Shown here: one piece after another, positions 18,292 to 55,858 of the stretch | Numbering within the stretch: the first letter of the stretch is position 1 | Layout: each line of letters opens with the position of its first letter | Notes under the pieces: generated by a model | What the model was told of the DNA's origin: nothing | Databases searched by the model: none | The model's input: only the letters and a program-made list of their open reading frames with translations | Sequence record: DRR723986_6741 | DNA: 64,000 bases | Strand: one strand, 5' to 3' | Translations under genes and position numbers: made by a program

Positions 18292-18780
18292 ATGACTAAA
18301 GCTTTTAACAGTAACCAAAAACACGATGCACAGTATAGCCCTTTTAAAATTATAGGAATTACCACACGAACTTCTAATTCTTCCGGAAAAGCAGCCGAAG
18401 ACTTAGGAGCTCTTTGGGGAAGATTTTTTGAAGAGCAAGTTGGAGCAAAAATTTCAGGAAAACTTAATGACGATATTTACGCTATCTATACCGATTATGA
18501 ATCTGACTATACTGGAGAATATACTTGCCTAATAGGATATCAAGTATCTAGCTTAGAAAATGTAGCCAAAGGCCTTGTAGCCAGAGAATTCGATGGAGGC
18601 AGGCACATCAAGTTTGTAGCTGCTGGAAAAATGCCTGAGGCAGTCGTCCATACTTGGCAGGAAATCTGGTCCAAGGATTCTGAAATAGACAGAAAATATA
18701 CTTCAGATTTTGAAGTCTATAGCTCCAAATCGCAGCAAGGAGATAATTCTGAGGTTGATATTTTTATTGCAGTCAAGTAA
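18292..18780 (+). CDS. GyrI-like small-molecule effector-binding protein
   Basis: IIGITTRTSN, YTDYESDYTGEY, RKYTSDFEVY. Confidence 0.85.
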   Translation: MTKAFNSNQKHDAQYSPFKIIGITTRTSNSSGKAAEDLGALWGRFFEEQVGAKISGKLNDDIYAIYTDYESDYTGEYTCLIGYQVSSLENVAKGLVAREFDGGRHIKFVAAGKMPEAVVHTWQEIWSKDSEIDRKYTSDFEVYSSKSQQGDNSEVDIFIAVK

Positions 18781-18889: not shown

Positions 18890-19003
18890 ATGGCAAAGCA
18901 ACCAGAAGGTAAACCTAAGAACGATAAATCTGCGGCTACCAAAACGTTAAAGGAAAAGCGTGCTGCAAAGGCCGCTAAAAAGGAAAGTAAGAAAAATAAT
19001 TAG
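18890..19003 (+). CDS. 37-aa Lys/Ala-rich basic microprotein (not in the ORF track)
   Basis: MAKQPEGKPKNDKSAATKTLKEKRAAKAAKKESKKNN*, followed by its own terminator. Confidence 0.7.
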   Translation: MAKQPEGKPKNDKSAATKTLKEKRAAKAAKKESKKNN

Positions 19004-19007
19004 TCAA

Positions 19008-19037
19008 CAAACAGAGGTCACAAGCCTCTGTTTTTTT
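19008..19037 (+). terminator. Intrinsic terminator after the microprotein
   Basis: AAACAGAGG-loop-CCTCTGTTTTTTT. Confidence 0.8.
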
Positions 19038-19105: not shown

Positions 19106-19113
19106 TATATTTG
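19106..19113 (+). promoter_or_regulatory. -7 promoter element TATATTTG for the TPP riboswitch leader
   Basis: TAnnTTTG 8 nt before the aptamer. Confidence 0.7.
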
Positions 19114-19121
19114 AATCAATT

Positions 19122-19199
19122 GCACGGGGTGCCTTCCTTTTGGTGAGGCTGAGAAAATACCCGAATTACCTGATTTGGATCATGCCAACGTAGGGATGC
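19122..19199 (+). ncRNA. TPP riboswitch (THI element)
   Basis: GGGGTGCC...GGCTGAGA-AAATACCC...ACCTGAT-TTGGATCATGCCAA-CGTAGGGA hallmark core. Confidence 0.93.
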
Positions 19200-19282
19200 T
19201 AAAGCCAGAAAACGCCTTTGTTTTCTCTTGGTTGTCTGACCGCAGGAATTGCAGTTAACATTTTTGCAACCTTAAATTCCCT

Positions 19283-20005
19283 ATGGAACTAGAGAAAAAG
19301 AACTTTGAATTACTGCCCGACGCGCAGAAAAACTGGCAAAATCGACCTGAGTGGTTTTTCAACCGCGCACACACAGATACTTATGAGCTATGGTACGAAG
19401 GGCGATACAAGCGCGCCGAAGTCTGGCAAAAGAAGGTCATGGAGCAGTTGGTGTCCAAAGACAAGCGAGTAAAGACACTCTTGGAATTCGGCTGTGGCAC
19501 CACCCGTTTTACACGTTGGTGGAAAGAAATTGGCATTAAAGCTACAGGAGGCGATATTTCTCCACTGATGCTATCCCAAGCTATCCATTTGTTTGATGGT
19601 GATTTGGTAATGGCTGATTCCCATTACATGCCTTTCAAGGATCATACCTTCGACTCGCTGGCATTCATCACTACGTTCGAGTATTACAAAGATCCTGTGA
19701 AAGTAATTCGTGAATCTGCCCGTGTTGCCAAATATGGTATTGCAATGGGAATGATGAATCGAAATTCACCAAAGGTGCTTAGGAGAAGAGTTCAGCAGGC
19801 TTTTGGTAAAAACCCGTTCTATGTCACGGCTACTTTTTACACACCAGCGATGCTCATTAAGATTATTGAGGAAGCTTTGGAAGGAAGAGATTACACAATT
19901 GAATGGTCATGTACTGGTTTGCCAAAATGGTTTCCCGTTCAGCAATGGAGTGTTCCGTATGGGGACTTTTTCGGATTATATGTCAAGTTGAATGATGTAG
20001 AATAA
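19283..20005 (+). CDS. Class I SAM-dependent methyltransferase (TPP-riboswitch controlled)
   Basis: LLEFGCGT motif I, GGDIS, MPFKDHTFD. Confidence 0.88.
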   Translation: MELEKKNFELLPDAQKNWQNRPEWFFNRAHTDTYELWYEGRYKRAEVWQKKVMEQLVSKDKRVKTLLEFGCGTTRFTRWWKEIGIKATGGDISPLMLSQAIHLFDGDLVMADSHYMPFKDHTFDSLAFITTFEYYKDPVKVIRESARVAKYGIAMGMMNRNSPKVLRRRVQQAFGKNPFYVTATFYTPAMLIKIIEEALEGRDYTIEWSCTGLPKWFPVQQWSVPYGDFFGLYVKLNDVE

Positions 20006-21060
20006 TGGCAGATCAACTCGGTAAAATCAACTTTGAAGGGTACCAGGATTTGCTCGCAGGTAGATTTGGAGCTGCTCGAAAAGAAGTAAAACAAGGCCCA
20101 GCATTCGGTGTAGACGTCGCTATTACGTCCCTTCCGGGAGGCTTGGCAATGGCGACTACGAGCGATCCACTTTCCTTGATTCCCTCTTTGGGATTGCAGG
20201 AGTCCGCCTGGCTCAGTGTGCACCTCATGGCCAATGATATGGCTACGACAGGTTTTGCACCACAGTACGGACAGTTTGTCTTGAATTTGCCGGATACACT
20301 TTCCAATGCCGATTTCAATACCTATTGGAGTTTTATCGATCGATATTGCCACGAAATCGGGGTTGCTATCACAGGAGGCCATACTGGATTTGTTCAGGGA
20401 CAAAATTCGACTTTTGCCGGAGGAGGTACGTTGATCACCATTGCAAAAGAATCCGAAATGCTTTGCTCCACAGGAGCTCAGGAAGGGGACGCCATTTTGG
20501 TGACGAAATCCTGTGCATTGACAGCTACAGCTATATTGGGGATGAGTTTTCCCCAAACTATCAAGCAAAAGCTTGGGATGGGAATTTACCATTCTGCGTG
20601 TGAGCAATTTTACCAAACTTCCTCGCTTCAAGATGCACTTTGCGCAGCTGGAACGGATAAGAAATACCCGGAAATCCATGCCATGCATGATGTCACTGAA
20701 GGTGGGGTGTTGGGTGCAATCTATGAAATGCTTGTAGCTTCGGATAAGGGCGGTGAAATTGACATTGACCAATTACCAATTGGCAATGTAGCTGCAGCGA
20801 TTTCAGAATTGTTTGGGCTGGATCCAAGATATTGCGTAGGTGCTGGATCCATGGTCATTGCTTGCGATGGCAATAAATCTGAGGATGTGATCAAGCGACT
20901 TGCTGAAATAAATATTCTCTGCACTCAAGTGGGAAGAGTGACTGAAAGTATAGCAGGCATTCAAAGCCAAAAATCAGGGATTACCTCTCCCTTAGTCTAT
21001 ATGGAGACTGATCCCTATTGGGCAGCTTATTTTGATGCATTAAAAGCTGGATGGAAATGA
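20005..21060 (+). CDS. AIR synthase-related (PurM/ThiL/HypE/SelD superfamily) protein
   Basis: GVDVA, TSDP, ANDMATTG, ITGGHT, MHDVTEGG. Confidence 0.88.
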   Translation: MADQLGKINFEGYQDLLAGRFGAARKEVKQGPAFGVDVAITSLPGGLAMATTSDPLSLIPSLGLQESAWLSVHLMANDMATTGFAPQYGQFVLNLPDTLSNADFNTYWSFIDRYCHEIGVAITGGHTGFVQGQNSTFAGGGTLITIAKESEMLCSTGAQEGDAILVTKSCALTATAILGMSFPQTIKQKLGMGIYHSACEQFYQTSSLQDALCAAGTDKKYPEIHAMHDVTEGGVLGAIYEMLVASDKGGEIDIDQLPIGNVAAAISELFGLDPRYCVGAGSMVIACDGNKSEDVIKRLAEINILCTQVGRVTESIAGIQSQKSGITSPLVYMETDPYWAAYFDALKAGWK

Positions 21061-21701
21061 AGGAAAAAGCGAAAATTAACTCTGGAATATATCTGGTGAT
21101 TGATCCTTCGATGGAAGAAAGCACGCTTTTAGAATCATTGGAAAAAGCTATTTCGGCAAAACCTTGCGCTCTGCAGATTTGGGATAATTTCCCTTCTTCG
21201 GTTCAGGTAGCACCACTTATTTGTAAAATAAAAGAGATCTGTAGAGGTACTGGAATTCCTATTTTAATGAATAATCATCCTGAATGGGCCGAGCTGTTTG
21301 ACATGGATGGAATTCATTTTGACGAGTTGTCCCCTGATCATACCGTATCGTTTCCTAAGTTAAAACAGCAAGGAAAACTCATTGGCGTGACGATCAATAA
21401 TGACTTGGACCTGATCAAAGCTGCTATTCGGGCCAATGTGGATTACCTCTCTTTTTGCTCCATGTTTCCCTCATCGACCGCAAATAGCTGTGATTTGGTG
21501 GAGTTCGAAACGGTTCAAAAAACAAGGAAACTCACATCCATCCCAATTTTCCTAGCAGGTGGGATCACTACCCAAAGAATCGAACACCTAAAACCCTTAG
21601 AATTTGATGGCATCGCTGTGGTGTCTGGTGTGATGAAAGCTGCAGATCCAGAGATAGCCATTTCTCAATACAAACAATTACTTACTGACTTAAAAAAATG
21701 A
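21051..21701 (+). CDS. Thiamine-phosphate synthase (ThiE/TenI) fold protein with divergent active site
   Basis: IYLVID, DGIH, DYL, IPIFLAGGI, GIAVVSGVMKAADP. Confidence 0.82.
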   Translation: MEMKEKAKINSGIYLVIDPSMEESTLLESLEKAISAKPCALQIWDNFPSSVQVAPLICKIKEICRGTGIPILMNNHPEWAELFDMDGIHFDELSPDHTVSFPKLKQQGKLIGVTINNDLDLIKAAIRANVDYLSFCSMFPSSTANSCDLVEFETVQKTRKLTSIPIFLAGGITTQRIEHLKPLEFDGIAVVSGVMKAADPEIAISQYKQLLTDLKK

Positions 21702-21979
21702 AACTAGAAACGATAGAAAAGCTCTGCTGTCCATTTGATAAGCAAGATTTAACCTTAAAAATAATCCTCAAAAATGCAGAAGAAAACATCTTAGAAGGCT
21801 GGCTAAACTGTTCAAGCTGTAGTAGAATCTACCCAATTATCAAAGGTATCCCCATCATGAATCCTGATGAGTATAGGGAAGCACACTTGGAGCAGCCAGT
21901 ATTGGATAGATGGCAAAATCAATTGGAAGGTAGAGAAATAAAGGATTTTAGGTTAAAAGAAAGCCCTTCTACTATCTGA
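21698..21979 (+). CDS. Trm112-like protein
   Basis: LCCPFDKQDL...GWLNCSSCSRIYPIIKGIPIM. Confidence 0.85.
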   Translation: MKLETIEKLCCPFDKQDLTLKIILKNAEENILEGWLNCSSCSRIYPIIKGIPIMNPDEYREAHLEQPVLDRWQNQLEGREIKDFRLKESPSTI

Positions 21980-22068: not shown

Positions 22069-24477
22069 ATGAAGAAATGGATTAAGAAAGCCAAAAACTG
22101 GATAACTGCTAAGCTGTCACTTATCTCTCCTGGTTTTTATGCATTTAAAGGCGCAGCCTTTGGCTTAATAGCATTCACAGTTTTATTGATTATCCTTAAT
22201 GTTGTTATATTTTCTTTTCAGATAGGCGATCCGTACTATTTGCTTTTTGGTCTAGTGACTATCATTGTTATGGCTCTTCTGGGGGCGTTGGGAGTTTGGA
22301 TTATAAAGCTTCTTTACCAAATCCCTAGGGGGTTCAAATTTGCGCTTCTTATGTGCTTGCCTATTCTGGCTATGATAGTTTATTTCCAGGTGGTATTGGT
22401 AGTACTATTGGCAGTGCTCTTTTCGATACTCGGCGCGGTATATTTTATCTTTGTACGTTCGAGCTTCTCCAGATTGACCACACCAAAAAAAGTGGTTGCT
22501 TCAATAGCTTTGTGTATTGCTCTTTTTGGAATCGGAGCCTCAGTATATTACTATTCTATTATTGGCTTGGATGTAGATCCAATTGAAAATGCAGCATTAC
22601 TTACTGCAGACAAAATTCCGGCGATTTTGGGAAAATCACCTGGAGACAATGGAGAGTATTTGGTCAAAACAATTACTTATGGCAGTGGAAAGGACAAACA
22701 TAGACCTGAGTTTGCTGAGAAAGTAACCTTTAATTTTTTAACAGATTCAGTGAACGGAGTTGCTTTTCTAGATAACTGGAATGGCTTTTCTGGTTGGTGG
22801 AGGGAGAAATACTGGGGTTTTGATGATAAATCGCTTCCAATCAATGGTAGAGTTTGGTACCCGGAAGGGCAAGGCCCATTCCCATTAGTTTTAGTAGTTC
22901 ATGGAAATCATAGCATGCAGGATTATTCTGATCCTGGTTACGATTACCTGGGAGAACTATTGGCTTCAAGGGGAATGGTTTTGGTATCAGTCGACGAGAA
23001 TTTCATCAACAGTTCGTGGACGGACATAAGGGAGGGATTAAGCGAAGAAAATGATGCTAGAGGCTGGTTGCTTTTGGAGCATCTCAAGGTTTGGCATGAT
23101 TGGAACTCAAGTTCAGATCACCCATTTTTCAATAAAATAGACACTACAAAGATAGCTTTGATCGGTCATTCCAGAGGCGGAGAAGCAGTGGCTCACGCCG
23201 CTATGTTAAATGAATTGGATTTTTATCCGGATGATGCTTCTGTCAAGCTGGATTATCATTATAACATCAAGTCGATCGTCGCCATCGCTCCTGTAGACGG
23301 GCAATACGAGCCAGGCGATAGTAGAACAAAATTGAAGGATATCAATTACTTCGTGATTCACGGAGCTCAGGATGCTGATGTTTCTTCCTTCATGGGATCT
23401 ATGCAATACGAGCGGATCAGCTTTCAGGATTCCTCCTATCATTTCAAATCTGGACTCTATGTTTATGGTGCCAATCACGGGCAATTCAATACTTCTTGGG
23501 GAAATAACGATACCGGTAATCCTTTTCTGGGCCTTTTGAACCTTAAACAGCAGCTTGATGATTCTACTCAGCAGAAAATTGCCAAGGTCTATATTTCAGC
23601 ATTTCTTGAAGCTACTTTGGAGGGGAAAAAGGAATATTTACCACTTTTCCTAGATGCCAGAAAAGGGAAGAATTGGCTTCCGGAGACGATTTACCTGAAT
23701 CAGTTTGAGGATTCAAACCTGAAAATCCTGGCAAATTTTGACGAGGATTTTGATGTTAAAACTCTAACCACTGATTCGGCGAGTGTAGAATCCACGAACT
23801 TATCGGTTTGGAGGGAAGCTGAAATCCAATTGAAATGGGGGAAAAAAGGCTCGAGAGCAGCTTTTTTGGGATGGAATTATGAGTTGGAAGATAGTTTGAA
23901 AGATGAAAAGGCTATAGACATTGTCGCAGACTCCTTAATTGCCAGCTACAGTTTAAACTTTGATCCTGAGGCTTTTTTGCTCGATTCCACCAGTGTTTTG
24001 ATGTTTTCCATGGCAGAATCAACCGAAGATGCTAACCCGAAATCCTCCGGAAAATGGCTTGTTAACGCTAATGATAATAATAACACTGAAGAAGAGGAGG
24101 ATGAAGAAAATTCTGACGAGGAACTTGAAGAGGTTGAGGAATCAGATGAAGATGACACTGAAGAGAAGAAAGCGAAGAAGCCTCTGGATTTCACCATCCA
24201 CTTACTAGATTCTGCTGGGCAATCTGTCAAATTCTTATTGAGTGAATTTTCTCCATTGCAGCGTGAAATTTCCGTGACCATCTGGAAATCTGATTTTATA
24301 CAAGGAAATAGTCAATCGGAAAAAGTATTTCAAACCTTCGCTTTCAACCTAGAAAAATTTGCCAAATCAAACCCTAGCTTCACTCCTACCCAAATCAAGA
24401 CTATCAAGTTTGTCTTTGATCAAAGTATCTCCGGAGTTGTGGTAGTGGATAATATTGGGTTTAGCCGAGAGTTGTAG
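22069..24477 (+). CDS. Membrane-anchored alpha/beta hydrolase
   Basis: About 5 N-terminal TM helices, VHGNH, GHSRGG nucleophile elbow, GANHGQFN. Confidence 0.8.
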   Translation: MKKWIKKAKNWITAKLSLISPGFYAFKGAAFGLIAFTVLLIILNVVIFSFQIGDPYYLLFGLVTIIVMALLGALGVWIIKLLYQIPRGFKFALLMCLPILAMIVYFQVVLVVLLAVLFSILGAVYFIFVRSSFSRLTTPKKVVASIALCIALFGIGASVYYYSIIGLDVDPIENAALLTADKIPAILGKSPGDNGEYLVKTITYGSGKDKHRPEFAEKVTFNFLTDSVNGVAFLDNWNGFSGWWREKYWGFDDKSLPINGRVWYPEGQGPFPLVLVVHGNHSMQDYSDPGYDYLGELLASRGMVLVSVDENFINSSWTDIREGLSEENDARGWLLLEHLKVWHDWNSSSDHPFFNKIDTTKIALIGHSRGGEAVAHAAMLNELDFYPDDASVKLDYHYNIKSIVAIAPVDGQYEPGDSRTKLKDINYFVIHGAQDADVSSFMGSMQYERISFQDSSYHFKSGLYVYGANHGQFNTSWGNNDTGNPFLGLLNLKQQLDDSTQQKIAKVYISAFLEATLEGKKEYLPLFLDARKGKNWLPETIYLNQFEDSNLKILANFDEDFDVKTLTTDSASVESTNLSVWREAEIQLKWGKKGSRAAFLGWNYELEDSLKDEKAIDIVADSLIASYSLNFDPEAFLLDSTSVLMFSMAESTEDANPKSSGKWLVNANDNNNTEEEEDEENSDEELEEVEESDEDDTEEKKAKKPLDFTIHLLDSAGQSVKFLLSEFSPLQREISVTIWKSDFIQGNSQSEKVFQTFAFNLEKFAKSNPSFTPTQIKTIKFVFDQSISGVVVVDNIGFSREL

Positions 24478-53075: not shown

Positions 53076-55466
53076 CTAAAACTTCATAGTCAGCCCCAAC
53101 ATAAAATTGGTCCCAGCCATCGGATAATAGTAGTTTTCTGTAATCAATTCTTTTCCAGAATCTCCGGGAATGTAATAGCTAAACGTGTAGCCATTTGGTT
53201 CATACATTTCATTGAAGATATTATTGACCATCAAGTTCACTTCTAAGCTTTTGAAGAATCTCGGTTGCACTTGGTAGCTGATTCGGATATCATTGGTGAA
53301 AAAAGAATCCAGTGATTTACTGTCATTGGCTGAGTTATCCAAGAATTGTTTTCCAACATACTTCGACATCCAGTTCAACGAAAGGTTCTCAATTGGTTTA
53401 TACTCTAGGATTGCAGATGCAATAGCATTTGGAGAAAACGCAATATCCGTATTCTCGTAAGTAAACGCCTCCTGCTGGAATTCTTCTGTGCTGTAATCGT
53501 CCACATACTCGGTAAACTCCTTGATCTTGTTTTGGCTCAGTGTCAGATTTCCACCTACAGTAAGGGCCTTCGAAATTTGATAACCACCCGAAAGCTCGAT
53601 TCCGGCACGATAAGAATTCGCGACATTTTCTCGAATGTATGCTCCCACATCATTGATCTGACCAGTTAATATCAATTGGTCTTTATAATCCATGTAATAG
53701 AAATTGGCGTTGTAATTAAACTTGCCTTTTTGAGCTCTTACTCCAGCTTCGATGTCATTCAATCGTTCTGGTCTAGGGATTTCAGTGATGGGATTATCCG
53801 TAAAGTCCGAACGCTTCGGTTCTCTATTCGCTACAGCATAGCTCGCATACCAAACCTGCCCATTGCTTCGCTCATAGCTCAAACCGAATTTTGGATTGAA
53901 AAAGGTATAGGTTTGATTGCCATCTACGATTCTTTGATCGTCGTTGACTCCATAAAATGTGTAATCAATCCCACGCAACTGTAAGTCCCCAAAGAGATTC
54001 AATCCAGGACTGATTTCGTGCATTGCTTTCAAATAGATATTTCTATCGTCCTTCACAGCATTGTTGTCATAATACCGATCCCGAATATTGGTTTCTCCAG
54101 CAATTCTCGCCCAAATGATTTCGCCAAAGTGATCTCCGTCGTAGCGATTGGCTCCACCGCCTAAGATGACATCCCATTTTCCATCATTCGAGATATAATT
54201 AACAGAAGCAATCCCTCCAAAGAAGTCATTGTCCAGCCATCTTCTGCGGATGATATCCGTGCTGGAAATGGTTTCTCCTCCGATTACTACATTAGGAAGA
54301 GCATAACTTGCAAAATCATCATCTTCACGAAACTGCTCGTAATAGCCCCGCCCATAAGTATAATGAAGCGCCGCATTTGTTTTCCAATTTGAACCAATTT
54401 TTCCGGTGTAAATCAGTTGATAATGGTCCTGTTGGTAATTGTCAGTTTCATTGTCGTACGTGTAGTAGTTATAGGTTCTATCTTCTTCGAGCTTTGATTC
54501 CGGAAGTCCCCACCAGGCCTGATAGGTTTGTTCTTTTCCTGAGAAAACATTCAATTTTACTACGTGGTTTTCACCATAGTATCCTCCAGAGACGAAGAAA
54601 GATTTTAAATCAGAAAATGCGCGATCCACATAGCCATCAGAGGTGATTTTGGATAGTCTGGCATCCACCGCAAACCGGTTATTCAAAAGTCCTGTTCCTG
54701 CTTTTACTGTATGCTTCCAAGAATTAAAGGAACCTACAGAATTGGAAATTTCAGCATAGGGTTCATCTTTCCGGGTATCTGTTTGAATGTTCAGACTGGC
54801 TCCAAAGGTTGCAGCTCCGTTAGTGGAGGTTCCAACACCCCGCTGGATTTGGATATTGTCTACGGAAGAAGCAAAATCCGGCATATTGACATAAAATACG
54901 CCATGTGATTCTGCATCATTCATAGGAATACCATTGACGGTCACATTGATTCGGCTTTGGTCCGATCCGCGGATACTCATGCTGGTATAGCCGATTCCGG
55001 CTCCAGCATCAGAATTTGTCACTACAGATGGGGTGAAATTCAAAAGAATCGGGATATCCTGTCCCAGATTTCTTTTGGCAAGTTCAGCCTTATCAATTGT
55101 CTGGAAAGTAGTTGGAGTAGTCGCAGATGCTCTAGTCGCAGAGACAATAAACTCTTCTGACAGGAGATCTGTTGGATTTAGCTCTAGCCTTAATTCTCCT
55201 GCTAAAGGCACGCTGAGGCTTTTTTGAAGTGTTTCAAAGCCAACATACGACACCCGGAGTTGAATCTCGCCTTCTTTTAATTTGGTAATTATAAAATTTC
55301 CGTTTTCATCCGTCACCGCTCCACGGCCTTGCTTTTCGGTCCAGACTGACGCTCCGATTAGTGGTTCGCCGCTTGAGCCATCCACTACTTTTCCACTGAT
55401 GCTATTCTGTGCCCAGGCGGAAATCGTAAACAGGCAAAATGCCAAGTTTAATAGTACTTTTTTCAT
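53076..55466 (-). CDS. TonB-dependent receptor, probably thiamine uptake
   Basis: CarbopepD_reg-like N domain, plug (SIRGSDQSRINVTVNGIP), C-terminal Phe; TPP riboswitch upstream. Confidence 0.9.
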   Translation of the reverse strand: MKKVLLNLAFCLFTISAWAQNSISGKVVDGSSGEPLIGASVWTEKQGRGAVTDENGNFIITKLKEGEIQLRVSYVGFETLQKSLSVPLAGELRLELNPTDLLSEEFIVSATRASATTPTTFQTIDKAELAKRNLGQDIPILLNFTPSVVTNSDAGAGIGYTSMSIRGSDQSRINVTVNGIPMNDAESHGVFYVNMPDFASSVDNIQIQRGVGTSTNGAATFGASLNIQTDTRKDEPYAEISNSVGSFNSWKHTVKAGTGLLNNRFAVDARLSKITSDGYVDRAFSDLKSFFVSGGYYGENHVVKLNVFSGKEQTYQAWWGLPESKLEEDRTYNYYTYDNETDNYQQDHYQLIYTGKIGSNWKTNAALHYTYGRGYYEQFREDDDFASYALPNVVIGGETISSTDIIRRRWLDNDFFGGIASVNYISNDGKWDVILGGGANRYDGDHFGEIIWARIAGETNIRDRYYDNNAVKDDRNIYLKAMHEISPGLNLFGDLQLRGIDYTFYGVNDDQRIVDGNQTYTFFNPKFGLSYERSNGQVWYASYAVANREPKRSDFTDNPITEIPRPERLNDIEAGVRAQKGKFNYNANFYYMDYKDQLILTGQINDVGAYIRENVANSYRAGIELSGGYQISKALTVGGNLTLSQNKIKEFTEYVDDYSTEEFQQEAFTYENTDIAFSPNAIASAILEYKPIENLSLNWMSKYVGKQFLDNSANDSKSLDSFFTNDIRISYQVQPRFFKSLEVNLMVNNIFNEMYEPNGYTFSYYIPGDSGKELITENYYYPMAGTNFMLGLTMKF

Positions 55467-55552
55467 GTGTAATTTTCCCTTTCGGAAGATTGAGTGAAAC
55501 ATGAGAAAGCTCTAGGGAAGCTCTCCGTTATTGTTTACCCTGTAGCAATGAC

Positions 55553-55586
55553 AAAATCAAAAGTCCCGAAGGGTACCTCTTCGGAT
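55553..55586 (-). terminator. Leader terminator (riboswitch expression platform)
   Basis: Minus strand TCCGAAG-AGGTACC-CTTCGGGA-CTTTTGATTTTG between the aptamer and the CDS. Confidence 0.6.
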
Positions 55587-55613
55587 TAATGATTCTCTTT
55601 TCTACTACGCTTG

Positions 55614-55696
55614 TTCATTTCCCTTCGCCGGCATTACCCGGATCAGGTCGTATGGGTATGATCTCAGCCCGTTTTGTTAAGGCACCCCCTATGATC
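55614..55696 (-). ncRNA. TPP riboswitch (THI element)
   Basis: Minus strand GGGGTGCC...GGCTGAGATCATACCC...ACCTGATCCGGGTAATGCCGGCGAAGGGA; -7 element TACCTTTG at 55710-55703. Confidence 0.95.
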
Positions 55697-55858
55697 TAAT
55701 AGCAAAGGTAATGTGGAAAAACTGCTACGCAAATCTGGGGATTGGAAAATTGATTTTACCAAAGACTACGTTGTAAGATGATAAAATGGGTTTAGTCTGA
55801 GTCTTTGACTCATCTCTCAATTCTTTTTCCTAAATTTCTGATCAAACCCTATTAACCT

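What the first reader, a model, noticed from the sequence alone, without database searches (positions are those of the whole stretch)
19106..21979. TPP-riboswitch operon of methyltransferase, PurM-like enzyme, divergent ThiE and Trm112: candidate undescribed thiamine remodelling/salvage pathway
Seen: a -7 promoter, a clear TPP aptamer, and four genes with overlapping stop/start codons (20005; 21051-21060; 21698-21701). Established: TPP riboswitches control thiamine synthesis, salvage and transport. Canonical bacterial thi pathways (ThiC/D/E/G/S/F/O/H/L/M, TenA) contain no class I SAM methyltransferase and no Trm112-like protein. Trm112 proteins activate class I methyltransferases. The PurM superfamily includes the thiamine-monophosphate kinase ThiL. 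Inference: this is a thiamine-starvation-induced module that methylates, ATP-activates and couples or binds a thiamine precursor or analogue (for example a desmethyl or damaged vitamer). I do not know of a characterisation of this combination.
Basis: partly seen in the sequence, partly recalled or inferred. Interest (0 to 1): 0.88.

Follow-up and report, generated by a model that had tools for sequence, protein, structure and literature searches.

The report
Riboswitch-controlled four-gene thiamine salvage cassette
A vitamin-B1-sensing RNA switch controls a tightly conserved set of four genes that probably lets bacteria lacking every standard B1 synthesis gene build the vitamin from scavenged pieces, using enzymes no known B1 pathway uses.

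Summary
A TPP riboswitch (RF00059, 68.7 bits, 19115-19213) precedes four overlapping genes: a class I SAM methyltransferase (MT), a PurM-superfamily protein (PurMl), a ThiE-family protein (ThiEl) and a Trm112-like protein.

The unit is a conserved, mobile cassette. Of 50 well-flanked related loci, 50 keep all four genes in order and 48 keep the aptamer.

Host genomes show no thiC, thiD or thiG (13 of 13 searched). ThiEl is their only strong ThiE-family hit.

ThiEl has lost the residues conserved in ordinary ThiE (read as its pyrophosphate/Mg site) and gained an invariant Trp, an Asp and two Cys. This variant occurs only together with MT.

PurMl is riboswitch-linked in many phyla, archaea included, beside thiC, thiD, thiE, tenA, cytX or thiT. 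It sits next to a genuine ThiL, so it is not ThiL. Twelve of 17 such genomes show no ThiM, ThiG or Thi4.

Best reading, inferred not shown:
- PurMl supplies thiazole phosphate.
- MT–Trm112 activates a pyrimidine precursor by methylation.
- ThiEl couples the two to thiamine phosphate.

Ten literature searches found no description. It is a new variant of thiamine salvage and of high interest.

The parts
19106..19113 (+). Candidate Bacteroidota-type -7 promoter box (TATATTTG)
   Evidence: Read directly from the sequence. The consensus TAnnTTTG is recalled from the literature and was not tested. The generic promoter scan was not enriched over shuffled sequence.
19115..19213 (+). TPP riboswitch aptamer (RF00059)
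   Evidence: 68.7 bits against a gathering score of 54.3, E 2.1e-11. Homologous aptamers stand at the same place in 12 of 13 and 48 of 50 related cassettes.
19214..19282 (+). Leader / expression platform, mechanism unresolved
   Evidence: It contains a 7-bp hairpin (AGAAAAC...GTTTTCT) in the centroid fold. The fold energy is no better than shuffles (z -0.13). No canonical terminator was found.
19283..20005 (+). MT: class I SAM-dependent methyltransferase, 240 aa
   Evidence: PF08241, 58 bits. No NCBIfam equivalog is reached. It is 73-87% identical across Bacteroidota orders. Nearest structures are TM1293 (Z 24.3), TT1324 (Z 22.9) and the Trm112-bound Hvo_0019 (Z 19.0).
20005..21060 (+). PurMl: PurM-superfamily ATP-utilising enzyme of a distinct subfamily, 351 aa
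   Evidence: PF00586 plus PF02769. HypE 67, SelD 62 and ThiL 57 bits, all far below their cut-offs. The model has pLDDT 94.5. Foldseek gives HypE TM 0.78, ThiL 0.72 and SelD 0.71.
21051..21701 (+). ThiEl: divergent ('C-type') ThiE-family TIM barrel, 216 aa (alternative start at 21057)
   Evidence: PF02581, 101 bits. TIGR00693 scores 92 against a cut-off of 145. Across 70 family members the canonical Q-x-R-x-K becomes Q-x-W-x-N/H. D91, C136 and C147 are invariant or nearly so, and the GGI and S-G/A motifs are kept.
21698..21979 (+). Trm112-like zinc-ribbon protein with a conserved C-terminal extension, 93 aa
   Evidence: PF03966, 32 bits. NF038101 Trm112_arch scores 60 against a cut-off of 77. 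Best PDB matches are archaeal Trm112 chains 6zxw_H and 6f5z_C. C11, C38, C41, P56, R60 and E65 are invariant in 27 sequences.
55603..55699 (-). Second TPP riboswitch of the window (same regulon, separate unit)
   Evidence: RF00059, 65.9 bits.
53076..55502 (-). TonB-dependent outer-membrane receptor behind the second riboswitch; probable uptake of thiamine or a precursor
   Evidence: PF00593, PF07715 and PF13715. In three relatives (L028, L029, L070) a receptor-sized ORF is co-transcribed with the cassette behind one aptamer. Pfam confirmed the receptor for L028, and found only the plug and N-terminal domains for L070.

Best explanation
This is a self-contained module, repressed by TPP, that makes thiamine phosphate from scavenged precursors. 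It works in bacteria that have none of the standard thiamine synthesis genes. It replaces the usual ThiM/ThiD/ThiE salvage enzymes with different ones.

Proposed steps:
1. When TPP is low, the riboswitch lets the four genes be expressed. This is inferred from how TPP riboswitches generally act.
2. PurMl uses ATP to phosphorylate the hydroxyethyl-thiazole moiety. That gives thiazole phosphate, or thiamine phosphate if it is given thiamine. This is inferred from gene context and from the missing thiazole branch.
3. The methyltransferase, held by its Trm112 partner, uses SAM to activate a pyrimidine precursor that is not HMP-PP. The most likely way is N-methylation of the aminomethyl-pyrimidine (AmMP) to a cationic ammonium leaving group. 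This is inference.
4. The ThiE-like barrel keeps its phosphate pocket for thiazole phosphate. It has exchanged its pyrophosphate/Mg site for Trp, other aromatics, Asp and Cys. It joins the two halves to give thiamine phosphate (inferred).
5. ThiL then makes TPP. In lineages without ThiL, dephosphorylation followed by TPK would do so.

What is shown: the anatomy, the conservation, the co-variation of MT with the ThiE-like variant, and the gene absences. No enzymatic step is shown.
For: Riboswitch and operon.

Cassette conservation:
- 13 of 13 genomes keep MT-PurMl-ThiEl in order. Trm112 is present in 11 of 13 and the aptamer in 12 of 13.
- Of 50 well-flanked loci with PurMl at 42% identity or more, 50 have all four genes and 48 have the aptamer.
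- Flanking genes are not conserved.

Host genomes:
- thiC 0 of 13, thiD over cut-off 0 of 13, and no real thiG in any of the 13.
- ThiEl is the only strong PF02581 hit in each genome.
- No genuine Thi4 in 5 of 5 tested.
- In G001 there is also no tenA and no thiM.
- Every one of the 13 has ThiL (11) or TPK (11), so a way to finish TPP exists.

ThiE-like active site, 70 cassette-type sequences against 4 canonical neighbours:
- R becomes W in 68 of 70.
- K becomes N or H in 60 of 70.
- The next residue is aromatic in 66 of 70.
- The position that is Asp in all four canonical ThiE becomes N, E, D or Q.
- New D91 in 69 of 70, and C136 and C147 in 70 of 70.
- GGI and S-G/A are retained.

MT present goes with the C-type ThiE-like protein, and MT absent goes with canonical ThiE. 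There were no exceptions after a tblastn check.

PurMl:
- The aptamer stands upstream in 16 of 22 distant loci from many phyla.
- Its neighbours are ThiC/ThiD/ThiE, ThiE/ThiD/TenA, TenA, CytX/ThiE, ThiT and ThiL/ThiD. This is the operon position that ThiM usually holds (recalled).
- Among 17 non-cassette PurMl genomes, ThiM occurs in 1, ThiG in 2 and Thi4 in 2, so 12 of 17 have none. Each of the 14 control genomes rang for at least one of the three.
- It is structurally a cousin of ThiL, which binds the same thiazolium-ethyl moiety next to ATP.

MT: its nearest solved complex is a Trm112-bound archaeal methyltransferase (PMC6144793, passages read).
Against: - No biochemical or expression data exist for any of the four proteins.
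- No PurM-superfamily member is known to phosphorylate an alcohol (recalled).
- G406 has a genuine ThiM as well as PurMl. Five of the 17 PurMl genomes do have ThiM, ThiG or Thi4.
- Those 17 genomes are reached through loci, are mostly MAGs and have unknown completeness.
- PurMl's neighbours are mostly pyrimidine-branch genes (TenA, ThiD, ThiC, CytX). That could equally mean it acts on the pyrimidine.
- Absence of thiC is the majority state in the phylum: ThiC is present in only 130 of 401 genomes and 27 of 179 genera. So 0 of 13 does not discriminate.
- H89, D91, C136 and C147 could instead form a metal site, which would imply different chemistry.
- Turning an amine into a good leaving group by methylation has no precedent in thiamine metabolism and may need three methyl transfers.
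- The very high conservation of MT is unexplained.
- No residue-level structure of ThiEl was made.
Confidence: 0.3

Rival explanations
1. Remodelling or repair of an intact thiamine-like molecule. An imported analogue or damage product that already carries both rings is phosphorylated or ATP-activated by PurMl, methylated by MT-Trm112, and bound through its phosphate by the ThiE-like barrel to yield thiamine phosphate. One chemically attractive variant has PurMl closing the thiazolium ring of ring-opened N-formyl thiamine. That would be the sulfur analogue of the AIR synthase reaction. Another has PurMl re-aminating oxythiamine in the manner of PurL.
For: - Cassette genomes have no known source of either half of the vitamin, so a substrate that is already joined would be simpler.
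- PurM, PurL and HypE chemistry is activation of an amide or formyl oxygen (recalled), which fits ring closure or re-amination better than alcohol phosphorylation.
- TonB receptors are co-transcribed with the cassette in three loci, and a ThiT precedes PurMl in L092.
- The ThiE fold binds thiamine phosphate as its product.
Against: - Thiamine's methyl groups are C-linked, and no natural desmethyl vitamer is known to me (recalled). A class I SAM methyltransferase therefore has no obvious role in repair.
- Ring-opened thiamine recloses spontaneously (recalled).
- The idea does not explain why MT co-varies strictly with loss of the pyrophosphate site.
- It does not explain why PurMl sits in thiC-thiD-thiE or tenA operons with canonical ThiE.
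Confidence: 0.22
2. PurMl acts on the pyrimidine half, not the thiazole. It would ATP-activate or convert a scavenged pyrimidine such as formylaminopyrimidine, a 4-oxo pyrimidine or HMP-P, upstream of TenA, ThiD and ThiE. In the cassette, MT and ThiEl would then process that product.
For: PurMl's neighbours in non-cassette loci are ThiC, ThiD (three loci), TenA (two loci), CytX and ThiE. No thiazole-branch gene was seen beside it.
Against: - Cassette genomes would then still lack any source of thiazole phosphate.
- ThiD is already bifunctional in most bacteria (recalled).
- 12 of 17 PurMl genomes lack ThiM, ThiG and Thi4. That gap would be left unfilled even where ThiC/ThiD/ThiE are present, as in L102.
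Confidence: 0.18
3. An ordinary pathway with a hitch-hiking methyltransferase. ThiEl would be a working thiamine-phosphate synthase using HMP-PP, PurMl a second thiamine-phosphate kinase, and MT-Trm112 an unrelated RNA or protein methyltransferase that happens to be co-transcribed.
For: - ThiEl is clearly in PF02581.
- PurMl has its third-best NCBIfam score to ThiL.
- Known Trm112 partners mostly modify the translation machinery (PMC6144793, passages read), and PDB sequence hits include Bud23.
Against: - No ThiD exists to make HMP-PP, 0 of 13 over cut-off.
- The pyrophosphate and Mg residues are replaced in 68-70 of 70 sequences.
- MT and the C-type ThiEl never occur apart.
- Genuine ThiL coexists with PurMl in 11 of 13 genomes and lies next to it in L101.
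- 50 of 50 loci keep the four genes together.
Confidence: 0.05
4. The cassette is not a thiamine-making route at all. It could be a TPP-independent bypass of a TPP-dependent enzyme, or a detoxification system for thiamine antimetabolites. Either would be switched on when TPP is scarce.
For: - Other cofactor riboswitches control cofactor-independent isozymes (recalled).
- Hosts are otherwise thiamine auxotrophs, so antivitamins would hurt most at low TPP.
- ThiEl gives weak hits to other phosphate-binding barrels such as HxlA at 20 bits.
Against: - PurMl relatives sit inside bona fide thi operons with thiC, thiD, thiE, tenA, cytX or thiT in several phyla.
- ThiEl's best matches by far are ThiE and TenI.
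- In G033 the cassette lies between a TonB receptor and TPK.
Confidence: 0.07

Closest known systems
thiM-thiD-thiE (with or without tenA, cytX) precursor-salvage operons under TPP riboswitches
   Same: Both have a TPP riboswitch in front. Both are compact operons whose output should be thiamine phosphate from scavenged thiazole and pyrimidine. Both contain a ThiE-family barrel. PurMl relatives occupy such operons next to ThiD, ThiE, TenA or CytX.
   Different: There is no ThiM and no ThiD. A PurM-superfamily enzyme and a SAM methyltransferase with a Trm112 partner stand in their place. The ThiE-like protein lacks the pyrophosphate and Mg residues.
Thiamine-phosphate synthase ThiE / thiazole tautomerase TenI (PF02581)
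   Same: Same fold and family: 101 bits, aligning end to end with the model. Q42, H89 and the GGI and S-G/A phosphate-binding motifs are conserved.
   Different: It falls below the ThiE equivalog cut-off (92 against 145) and the TenI cut-off (46 against 251). R, K and D of the pyrophosphate/Mg site are replaced. W44, D91, C136 and C147 are new and invariant or nearly so.
PurM superfamily: ThiL, HypE, SelD, PurM, PurL
   Same: Two-domain AIRS fold with the conserved Asp-rich ATP/Mg motifs. Structural matches have TM 0.7-0.8.
   Different: It reaches no equivalog cut-off. It is roughly equidistant from HypE, ThiL and SelD. It has its own invariant residues: K7, H126, and D336-P-Y-W339 at the C-terminus. 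The protein ends in ...AGWK, so it lacks the C-terminal Cys that HypE carries (that HypE motif is recalled).
Trm112-methyltransferase holoenzymes (for example Hvo_0019-Trm112 of Haloferax volcanii, PDB 6f5z)
   Same: A small zinc-ribbon Trm112 protein is encoded with a class I methyltransferase. Both chains of 6f5z are among the best PDB matches. That paper notes that bacterial Trm112 partners were unknown (PMC6144793, passages read).
   Different: Known partners modify tRNA, rRNA or release factors, or are uncharacterised. None is tied to a vitamin pathway or a riboswitch. The cassette Trm112 carries a conserved extra tail of about 30 residues. Binding was not tested successfully here.
Base-degraded thiamine salvage (ThiXYZ-YlmB-TenA-ThiD) and thiaminase I base exchange
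   Same: Both use aminopyrimidine-type breakdown products as the pyrimidine source. Thiaminases swap the group on the pyrimidine methylene and use an active-site cysteine. Both descriptions are recalled from the literature.
   Different: No TenA was found in G001 and no ThiD in 13 genomes. The proposed activation by methylation and the coupling by a ThiE-fold enzyme are not part of those systems.

Membership tests
TPP riboswitch (RF00059) | Covariance-model score at or above Rfam's gathering score over the whole aptamer | tested here: met
   68.7 bits against 54.3, model positions 1-105.
TPP riboswitch (RF00059) | Represses downstream genes when TPP binds | not testable with these tools
   The expression platform is not resolved. 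No RNA run was listed.
ThiE, thiamine-phosphate synthase (TIGR00693) | Score at or above the curated equivalog cut-off | tested here: not met
   92.3 bits against a cut-off of 145.1.
ThiE, thiamine-phosphate synthase | Pyrophosphate/Mg-binding residues (the Q-x-R-x-K motif, the N-D pair, the loop Lys) | tested here: not met
   R becomes W in 68 of 70 and K becomes N or H in 60 of 70. The Asp position is variable. Four canonical ThiE proteins from related loci keep Q-L-R-D-K and N-D. The functional roles of these residues are recalled from the B. subtilis enzyme.
ThiE / TenI fold (PF02581) | Pfam gathering score and the C-terminal phosphate-binding motifs | tested here: met
   101.2 bits against 27. 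GGI in 70 of 70 and S192 in 66 of 70.
TenI thiazole tautomerase (NF005819) | Score at or above the curated cut-off | tested here: not met
   46.2 bits against 251, covering the C-terminal half only.
ThiL, thiamine-phosphate kinase (TIGR01379) | Score at or above the curated cut-off, and being the genome's ThiL | tested here: not met
   57.1 bits against 184.15. A separate 323-bit ThiL exists in G001. A 317-bit ThiL lies next to PurMl in L101.
HypE (TIGR02124) / SelD (TIGR00476) | Score at or above the curated cut-off | tested here: not met
   HypE 67.1 against 251.6, and SelD 44.3 against 125.
PurM superfamily (PF00586 + PF02769) | Both AIRS domains over the Pfam cut-offs, and the fold | tested here: met
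   34.2 and 64.7 bits. Foldseek TM 0.71-0.78 to HypE, ThiL and SelD.
Class I SAM-dependent methyltransferase | Methyltransferase domain with the glycine-rich SAM motif, and the Rossmann-like fold | tested here: met
   PF08241, 58 bits. G70-C-G-T73 and D91 are invariant. Z scores of 18-24 to many SAM methyltransferases.
Trm112 (PF03966) | Pfam gathering score | tested here: met
   32 bits against 22.
Archaeal Trm112 equivalog (NF038101) | Score at or above the curated cut-off | tested here: not met
   60.2 bits against 77. It is nevertheless the only NCBIfam model hit.
Trm112-methyltransferase holoenzyme | Physical binding of Trm112 to the methyltransferase | tested here: inconclusive
   The complex-prediction job failed three times and gave no score. 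Support comes only from gene adjacency in 50 of 50 loci and likeness to 6f5z.

The most novel reading that the evidence does not exclude
A thiamine-phosphate synthase system driven by SAM rather than by pyrophosphate. The scavenged aminopyrimidine is made into a quaternary or methylated ammonium by a Trm112-dependent methyltransferase. A ThiE-fold enzyme, whose anion site has become an aromatic/Asp/Cys pocket, then displaces that amine with thiazole phosphate. The thiazole phosphate comes from a new PurM-superfamily thiazole kinase. The whole unit would have been passed between archaea and bacteria as a mobile cassette.
Probability: 0.13. Interest if true: 0.95.

Novelty: new variant of a known kind. 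Interest (0 to 1): 0.8.

Why it matters
Thiamine synthesis and salvage are regarded as biochemically complete, yet three things here do not fit that picture.

- A riboswitch-marked cassette is found across many Bacteroidota genera, and in 13 of 401 sampled genomes. It contains three enzyme types with no assigned role in any thiamine pathway.
- One of the three is a ThiE whose pyrophosphate site is gone.
- The PurM-like member is riboswitch-linked in many phyla, archaea included. It may be the missing thiazole-branch enzyme in genomes that have thiC-thiD-thiE but no ThiG, Thi4 or ThiM.

If the model holds, several things follow:
- It would add new chemistry to vitamin B1 metabolism.
- It would give bacterial Trm112 its first metabolic role.
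- It would change which organisms are scored as B1 auxotrophs in genome-based models.
- It would point to further precursor currencies in soil and aquatic B1 cycling.

The riboswitch makes the hypothesis directly testable by complementation and in-vitro assays.

Tried and rejected
Tools that gave no result
- Complex prediction for MT with Trm112 failed three times. There is no score, so it says nothing about binding.
- The look-up of sequencing runs listed no RNA holder, so no expression data were available and read laying was not used.
- The search of earlier findings gave nothing by place, by sequence or by words.
- The window's own assembly is not held. The nearest genome, G001, was used instead. 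It shares 78% of sampled words and is 99% complete.

Ideas rejected
- PurMl is ThiL. Rejected because of sub-cut-off scores, coexistence with genuine ThiL, and adjacency to one.
- PurMl is the general thiamine kinase of a TPK-less family. Rejected because TPK was found in 0 of 61 Cyclobacteriaceae genomes, yet only 2 of 13 sampled family members carry the cassette.
- Cassette presence correlates with loss of thiC. This is not informative, because thiC is missing from 271 of 401 sampled genomes and from all sampled members of the three main host families.

Searches that added little
- A search for fused forms longer than 615 aa found none at E 1e-30 or better. This is weak evidence.
- The ESM Atlas returned only the protein's own 'AIR synthase' clusters.
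- The fold of the leader RNA was no better than shuffles.
- Structural neighbours of MT are mostly uncharacterised structural-genomics proteins (TM1293, TT1324), so the fold gave no substrate.

Corrected artefacts
- My first ORF-based tally wrongly showed MT or Trm112 missing in eight loci. tblastn showed these were ORF-calling artefacts or contig ends.
- One alignment call failed on wrong coordinates. It was repeated without that row.

Literature
- Ten full-text searches found no paper on this cluster.
- In one search the term 'HypE' matched 'hyper...' and was useless.
- Most searches used 'thiamine', which misses the spelling 'thiamin'. Only one search covered that spelling.
- PMC3766115 was read in passages. 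It lists its TPP regulon members only in Additional file 5, which I could not see, and its only Bacteroidota group was Bacteroidaceae.

Full report
**1. Observation**

- cmscan finds a full-length TPP aptamer (RF00059) at 19115-19213 on the + strand. It scores 68.7 bits against a gathering score of 54.3.
- Four ORFs follow at 19283-20005, 20005-21060, 21051-21701 and 21698-21979.
- Pfam assigns a class I methyltransferase (PF08241), a two-domain PurM-superfamily protein (PF00586 plus PF02769), a ThiE/TenI-family barrel (PF02581) and a Trm112-like protein (PF03966). All are above cut-off.
- None of the four reaches an NCBIfam equivalog cut-off:
  - ThiE 92 against 145
  - ThiL 57 against 184
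  - HypE 67 against 252
  - Trm112_arch 60 against 77
- TATATTTG at 19106-19113 fits the Bacteroidota -7 box. That consensus is recalled, and the generic promoter scan was uninformative.
- The organism is an Algoriphagus-like member of the Bacteroidota, because the best named relatives of the PurM-like protein are Algoriphagus species.

I call the four proteins MT, PurMl, ThiEl and Trm112 below.

**2. A conserved, autonomous cassette**

*The phylum sample.* I searched 401 Bacteroidota genomes that were at least 90% complete.
- PurMl occurs in 13 of them, in 8 genera, and in only 1 of 5 genomes of the window's own genus.
- In all 13, MT, PurMl and ThiEl are adjacent and in the same order.
- Trm112 follows in 11 of the 13.
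- A TPP aptamer at Rfam's gathering score stands in front in 12 of the 13. In two of these it lies in front of a preceding 823-830 aa ORF. For one of the two (L028), Pfam shows this ORF to be a TonB-dependent receptor.
- Flanking genes are otherwise unrelated.

*The wider scan.* A scan of one genome per species gave 80 further loci.
- 58 of them have PurMl at 42% identity or more, and 50 of those have enough flank to judge.
- Of those 50, all have MT, ThiEl and Trm112 in order, and 48 have the aptamer.

*Conservation.*
- MT is strikingly conserved, at 73-87% identity across orders.
- PurMl is 43-60% identical.
- ThiEl is 31-44% identical.

*PurMl tree.*
- The four-gene cassettes form one clade with SH-aLRT support of 99.
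- Inside it, Bacteroidota families are intermixed, and a Woeseia MAG and a Balneolales MAG are nested within it.
- A second clade lacks Trm112. It joins a Kryptonia MAG, one Bacteroidota genus (G033 and G201) and Bathyarchaeota.
- This pattern fits horizontal spread. The backbone of the tree is unresolved.

**3. What the host genomes lack**

*G001* is the nearest held genome. It shares 78% of sampled words and is 99% complete.
- It has no thiC, thiG or tenA.
- It has no thiM over cut-off.
- For thiD it has only a marginal 27-bit hit in a 493-aa ORF.
- It has a genuine ThiL at 323 bits.
- ThiEl is its only PF02581 hit.

*Across the 13 cassette genomes:*
- thiC is found in 0 of 13.
- thiD over cut-off is found in 0 of 13.
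- thiG gives only 20-29-bit partial barrel hits.
- The cassette's ThiEl is the only strong ThiE-family hit in each.
- Thi4 gave only FAD-motif fragments in 5 of 5 tested.
- ThiL is genuine in 11 of 13, missing from G033 and G201.
- TPK is present in 11 of 13, missing from G001 and G215. Every genome therefore has one way to finish TPP.
- In G033, TPK and a sodium:solute symporter follow ThiEl directly.

*Caveat.* thiC is missing from 271 of 401 sampled genomes, and from all sampled members of the host families. Its absence from the 13 does not discriminate. The cassette is a minority accessory among many B1-dependent relatives.

**4. The ThiE-like protein is not an ordinary ThiE**

I aligned 70 cassette-type sequences with four canonical ThiE proteins that lie next to PurMl in other phyla. 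The two of those four scanned with Pfam score 195 and 217 bits. The comparison is:

| Canonical ThiE | Cassette-type ThiEl |
|---|---|
| Q of Q-L-R-D-K | Q, 70 of 70 |
| R | W, 68 of 70 |
| K | N or H, 60 of 70 (K in only 2) |
| residue after K | aromatic, 66 of 70 |
| Asp of the N-D pair | N, E, D or Q |

- Residues new to the cassette type are D91 (69 of 70), S134, C136 and C147 (70 of 70 each).
- The GGI and S-G/A motifs that hold the substrate phosphate in this barrel family are kept.
- By alignment to B. subtilis ThiE, the lost residues are those that bind the pyrophosphate leaving group and its Mg. Their roles are recalled from the literature.
- I infer that ThiEl still binds a phosphorylated ligand, most simply thiazole phosphate, but cannot use HMP-PP.
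- The replacement of cationic by aromatic and acidic residues would suit a cationic or neutral leaving group.
- Alternatively, H89, D91, C136 and C147 could form a metal site.

**5. MT and the C-type ThiEl always go together**

- Every locus with MT has the C-type ThiEl.
- The PurMl loci without MT that have a ThiE next door have a canonical one. Two (L102, L112) were checked residue by residue, and three more (L098, L107, L115) by score or motif.
- Apparent exceptions in my first tally were ORF-calling artefacts or contig ends, resolved by tblastn.
- This co-variation is the main reason to think the MT product occupies the pocket that pyrophosphate occupies in ThiE.

**6. PurMl is a thiamine-linked enzyme in its own right**

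*Distribution.* In 22 loci with PurMl below 42% identity, 16 have the TPP aptamer upstream. These loci come from Bathyarchaeota, Thermoplasmata, a Methanobacteriota MAG, Kryptoniota, Thermomicrobiales, Zixibacteria, Planctomycetales, Myxococcota, Dehalococcoidia and others.

*Gene contexts*:

| Locus | Order of genes behind the aptamer |
|---|---|
| L102 | ThiC-PurMl-ThiD-ThiE |
| L098 | PurMl-ThiE-ThiD-TenA |
| L101 | PurMl-ThiL (317 bits)-ThiD |
| L105 | PurMl-TenA |
| L112 | CytX-PurMl-ThiE |
| L092 | ThiT-PurMl |
| L096, L097, L103 | ECF S-component (Pfam on L103 only; L097's contig ends before ThiEl)-MT-PurMl-ThiEl |
| several | PurMl alone |

*Not ThiL.* Genuine ThiL coexists with PurMl in 3 of 5 of these genomes tested, and in L101 the two genes are neighbours. 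So PurMl is not ThiL.

*Structure.* The PurMl model (pLDDT 94.5) is about equally close to HypE (TM 0.78), ThiL (0.72) and SelD (0.71).

*Conserved residues.* Residues invariant across cassette and non-cassette members (K7, D54, D78, H126, H228-D229, D336, W339) suggest one reaction in all contexts.

**7. Which reaction?**

- In these operons PurMl holds the place that thiazole kinase ThiM holds in familiar thiM-thiD-thiE salvage operons (recalled).
- Of the 17 non-cassette PurMl genomes, ThiM was found in 1, ThiG in 2 and Thi4 in 2.
- So 12 of 17 show no known source of thiazole phosphate.
- That group includes genomes whose PurMl operon carries ThiC/ThiD/ThiE (L102), CytX/ThiE (L112), ThiL/ThiD (L101), TenA (L105) or ThiE (L107).
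- Each of the 14 control genomes rang for at least one of the three families.
- These 17 are mostly MAGs of unknown completeness. One (G406) has both ThiM and PurMl. The support is therefore suggestive, not decisive.
- ThiL, a structural cousin, binds the same hydroxyethyl-thiazolium moiety next to ATP. A kinase for that moiety, free or within thiamine, is my preferred reading. No alcohol kinase is known in this superfamily (recalled).

**8. MT and Trm112**

*MT.*
- It keeps the SAM-binding motifs.
- Its model (pLDDT 85.9) is closest to two uncharacterised structural-genomics proteins: TM1293 at Z 24.3 and TT1324 at Z 22.9.
- Next comes a broad field that includes Hvo_0019, solved in complex with archaeal Trm112, at Z 19.0.
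- The paper on that complex states that the substrate of Hvo_0019 is unknown, and that nothing was known about bacterial Trm112 partners (PMC6144793, passages read).

*Trm112.*
- The cassette Trm112 matches only the archaeal NCBIfam model, and its best PDB matches are archaeal chains.
- It has a conserved tail of about 30 residues.
- The Trm112-less cassettes occur in Bathyarchaeota and two bacterial lineages.
- One possible story is that the gene travelled with its methyltransferase into bacteria. The direction of transfer is not shown.

*Binding.* The complex prediction failed three times, so binding rests on gene adjacency and analogy.

**9. Model**

Low TPP opens the riboswitch. Then:
1. 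PurMl makes thiazole phosphate from scavenged thiazole.
2. MT-Trm112 activates a scavenged pyrimidine. The most likely route is N-methylation of the aminomethyl-pyrimidine to an ammonium leaving group.
3. ThiEl couples the two to thiamine phosphate.
4. ThiL, or a phosphatase plus TPK, completes TPP.

This model accounts for:
- the riboswitch
- the absence of ThiD, ThiM, TenA and ThiG
- the retained phosphate pocket and the lost anion site of ThiEl
- the MT-ThiEl co-variation
- the universal presence of ThiL or TPK
- the occasional co-transcription with outer-membrane receptors or an ECF S-component

Only the anatomy, conservation and absences are shown. Every catalytic assignment is inference. 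I put 0.3 on the model as a whole, and about 0.7 on the broader statement that the cassette is a thiamine or precursor salvage module that replaces the standard enzymes.

**10. Rivals**

- Repair or remodelling of an already joined thiamine analogue: 0.22.
- PurMl acting on the pyrimidine half: 0.18.
- An ordinary ThiE plus a second ThiL with a hitch-hiking methyltransferase: 0.05.
- A function outside thiamine synthesis: 0.07.

Details and refuting results are in the Rival explanations section.

**11. Literature**

- Ten full-text searches found no paper describing this gene combination.
- The library lacks most subscription journals.
- One comparative-genomics paper on TPP regulons (PMC3766115, passages read) keeps its gene lists in a supplement that I could not open.
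- 'Not described' therefore means 'not found in these searches'.

Noticed in passing
window 53076-55699 (-): A second TPP riboswitch (65.9 bits) controls a single-gene TonB-dependent receptor with a CarboxypepD_reg-like N-terminal domain. It is presumably an outer-membrane importer of thiamine or a precursor. A similar receptor is fused into the cassette operon in some relatives.
   Followed up: partly
G001 contig C4:166562-169676 (locus L125), outside the window: The nearest genome has a third TPP riboswitch (55 bits). It stands in front of a 208-aa Pnu-family transporter (PnuC model, 74 bits), whose end overlaps the start of an ORF of at least 288 aa. That ORF was not annotated. Pnu transporters normally need a trapping kinase, and none is evident.
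   Followed up: partly
family-level genome search, not a window coordinate: Thiamine pyrophosphokinase (TIGR01378) was found in 0 of 61 genomes of the window's family, each from a different genus and at least 90% complete. thiC was found in 0 of 13 sampled family members. How this family converts imported thiamine to TPP is unclear, since most members also lack the cassette.
   Followed up: no
window 18890-19033 (+): A 37-codon lysine-rich ORF (starts MAKQPEGKPK) is followed at once by a strong terminator-like hairpin at 19009-19033 (10 pairs plus a T run). It lies just upstream of the cassette promoter. Its function is unknown.
   Followed up: no
window 22069-24477 (+): The downstream 802-aa protein has several N-terminal membrane helices, a weak alpha/beta-hydrolase match (chlorophyllase/PETase-like, GHSRGG motif) and a long acidic Glu/Asp-rich stretch. 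It is not conserved next to the cassette in relatives, so it is not part of the cassette.
   Followed up: partly
window 18292-18780 (+): The upstream neighbour is a GyrI-like / Cass2 small-molecule-binding protein (94 bits). It is not conserved beside the cassette elsewhere.
   Followed up: partly
L091:5178-10352: In one archaeal MAG, a PurMl relative without a riboswitch lies between an amino-acid-permease-like protein and a pyridine-nucleotide-disulfide oxidoreductase followed by a lipoate-protein ligase domain. This is a different context that may hint at a thiol or disulfide substrate.
   Followed up: no
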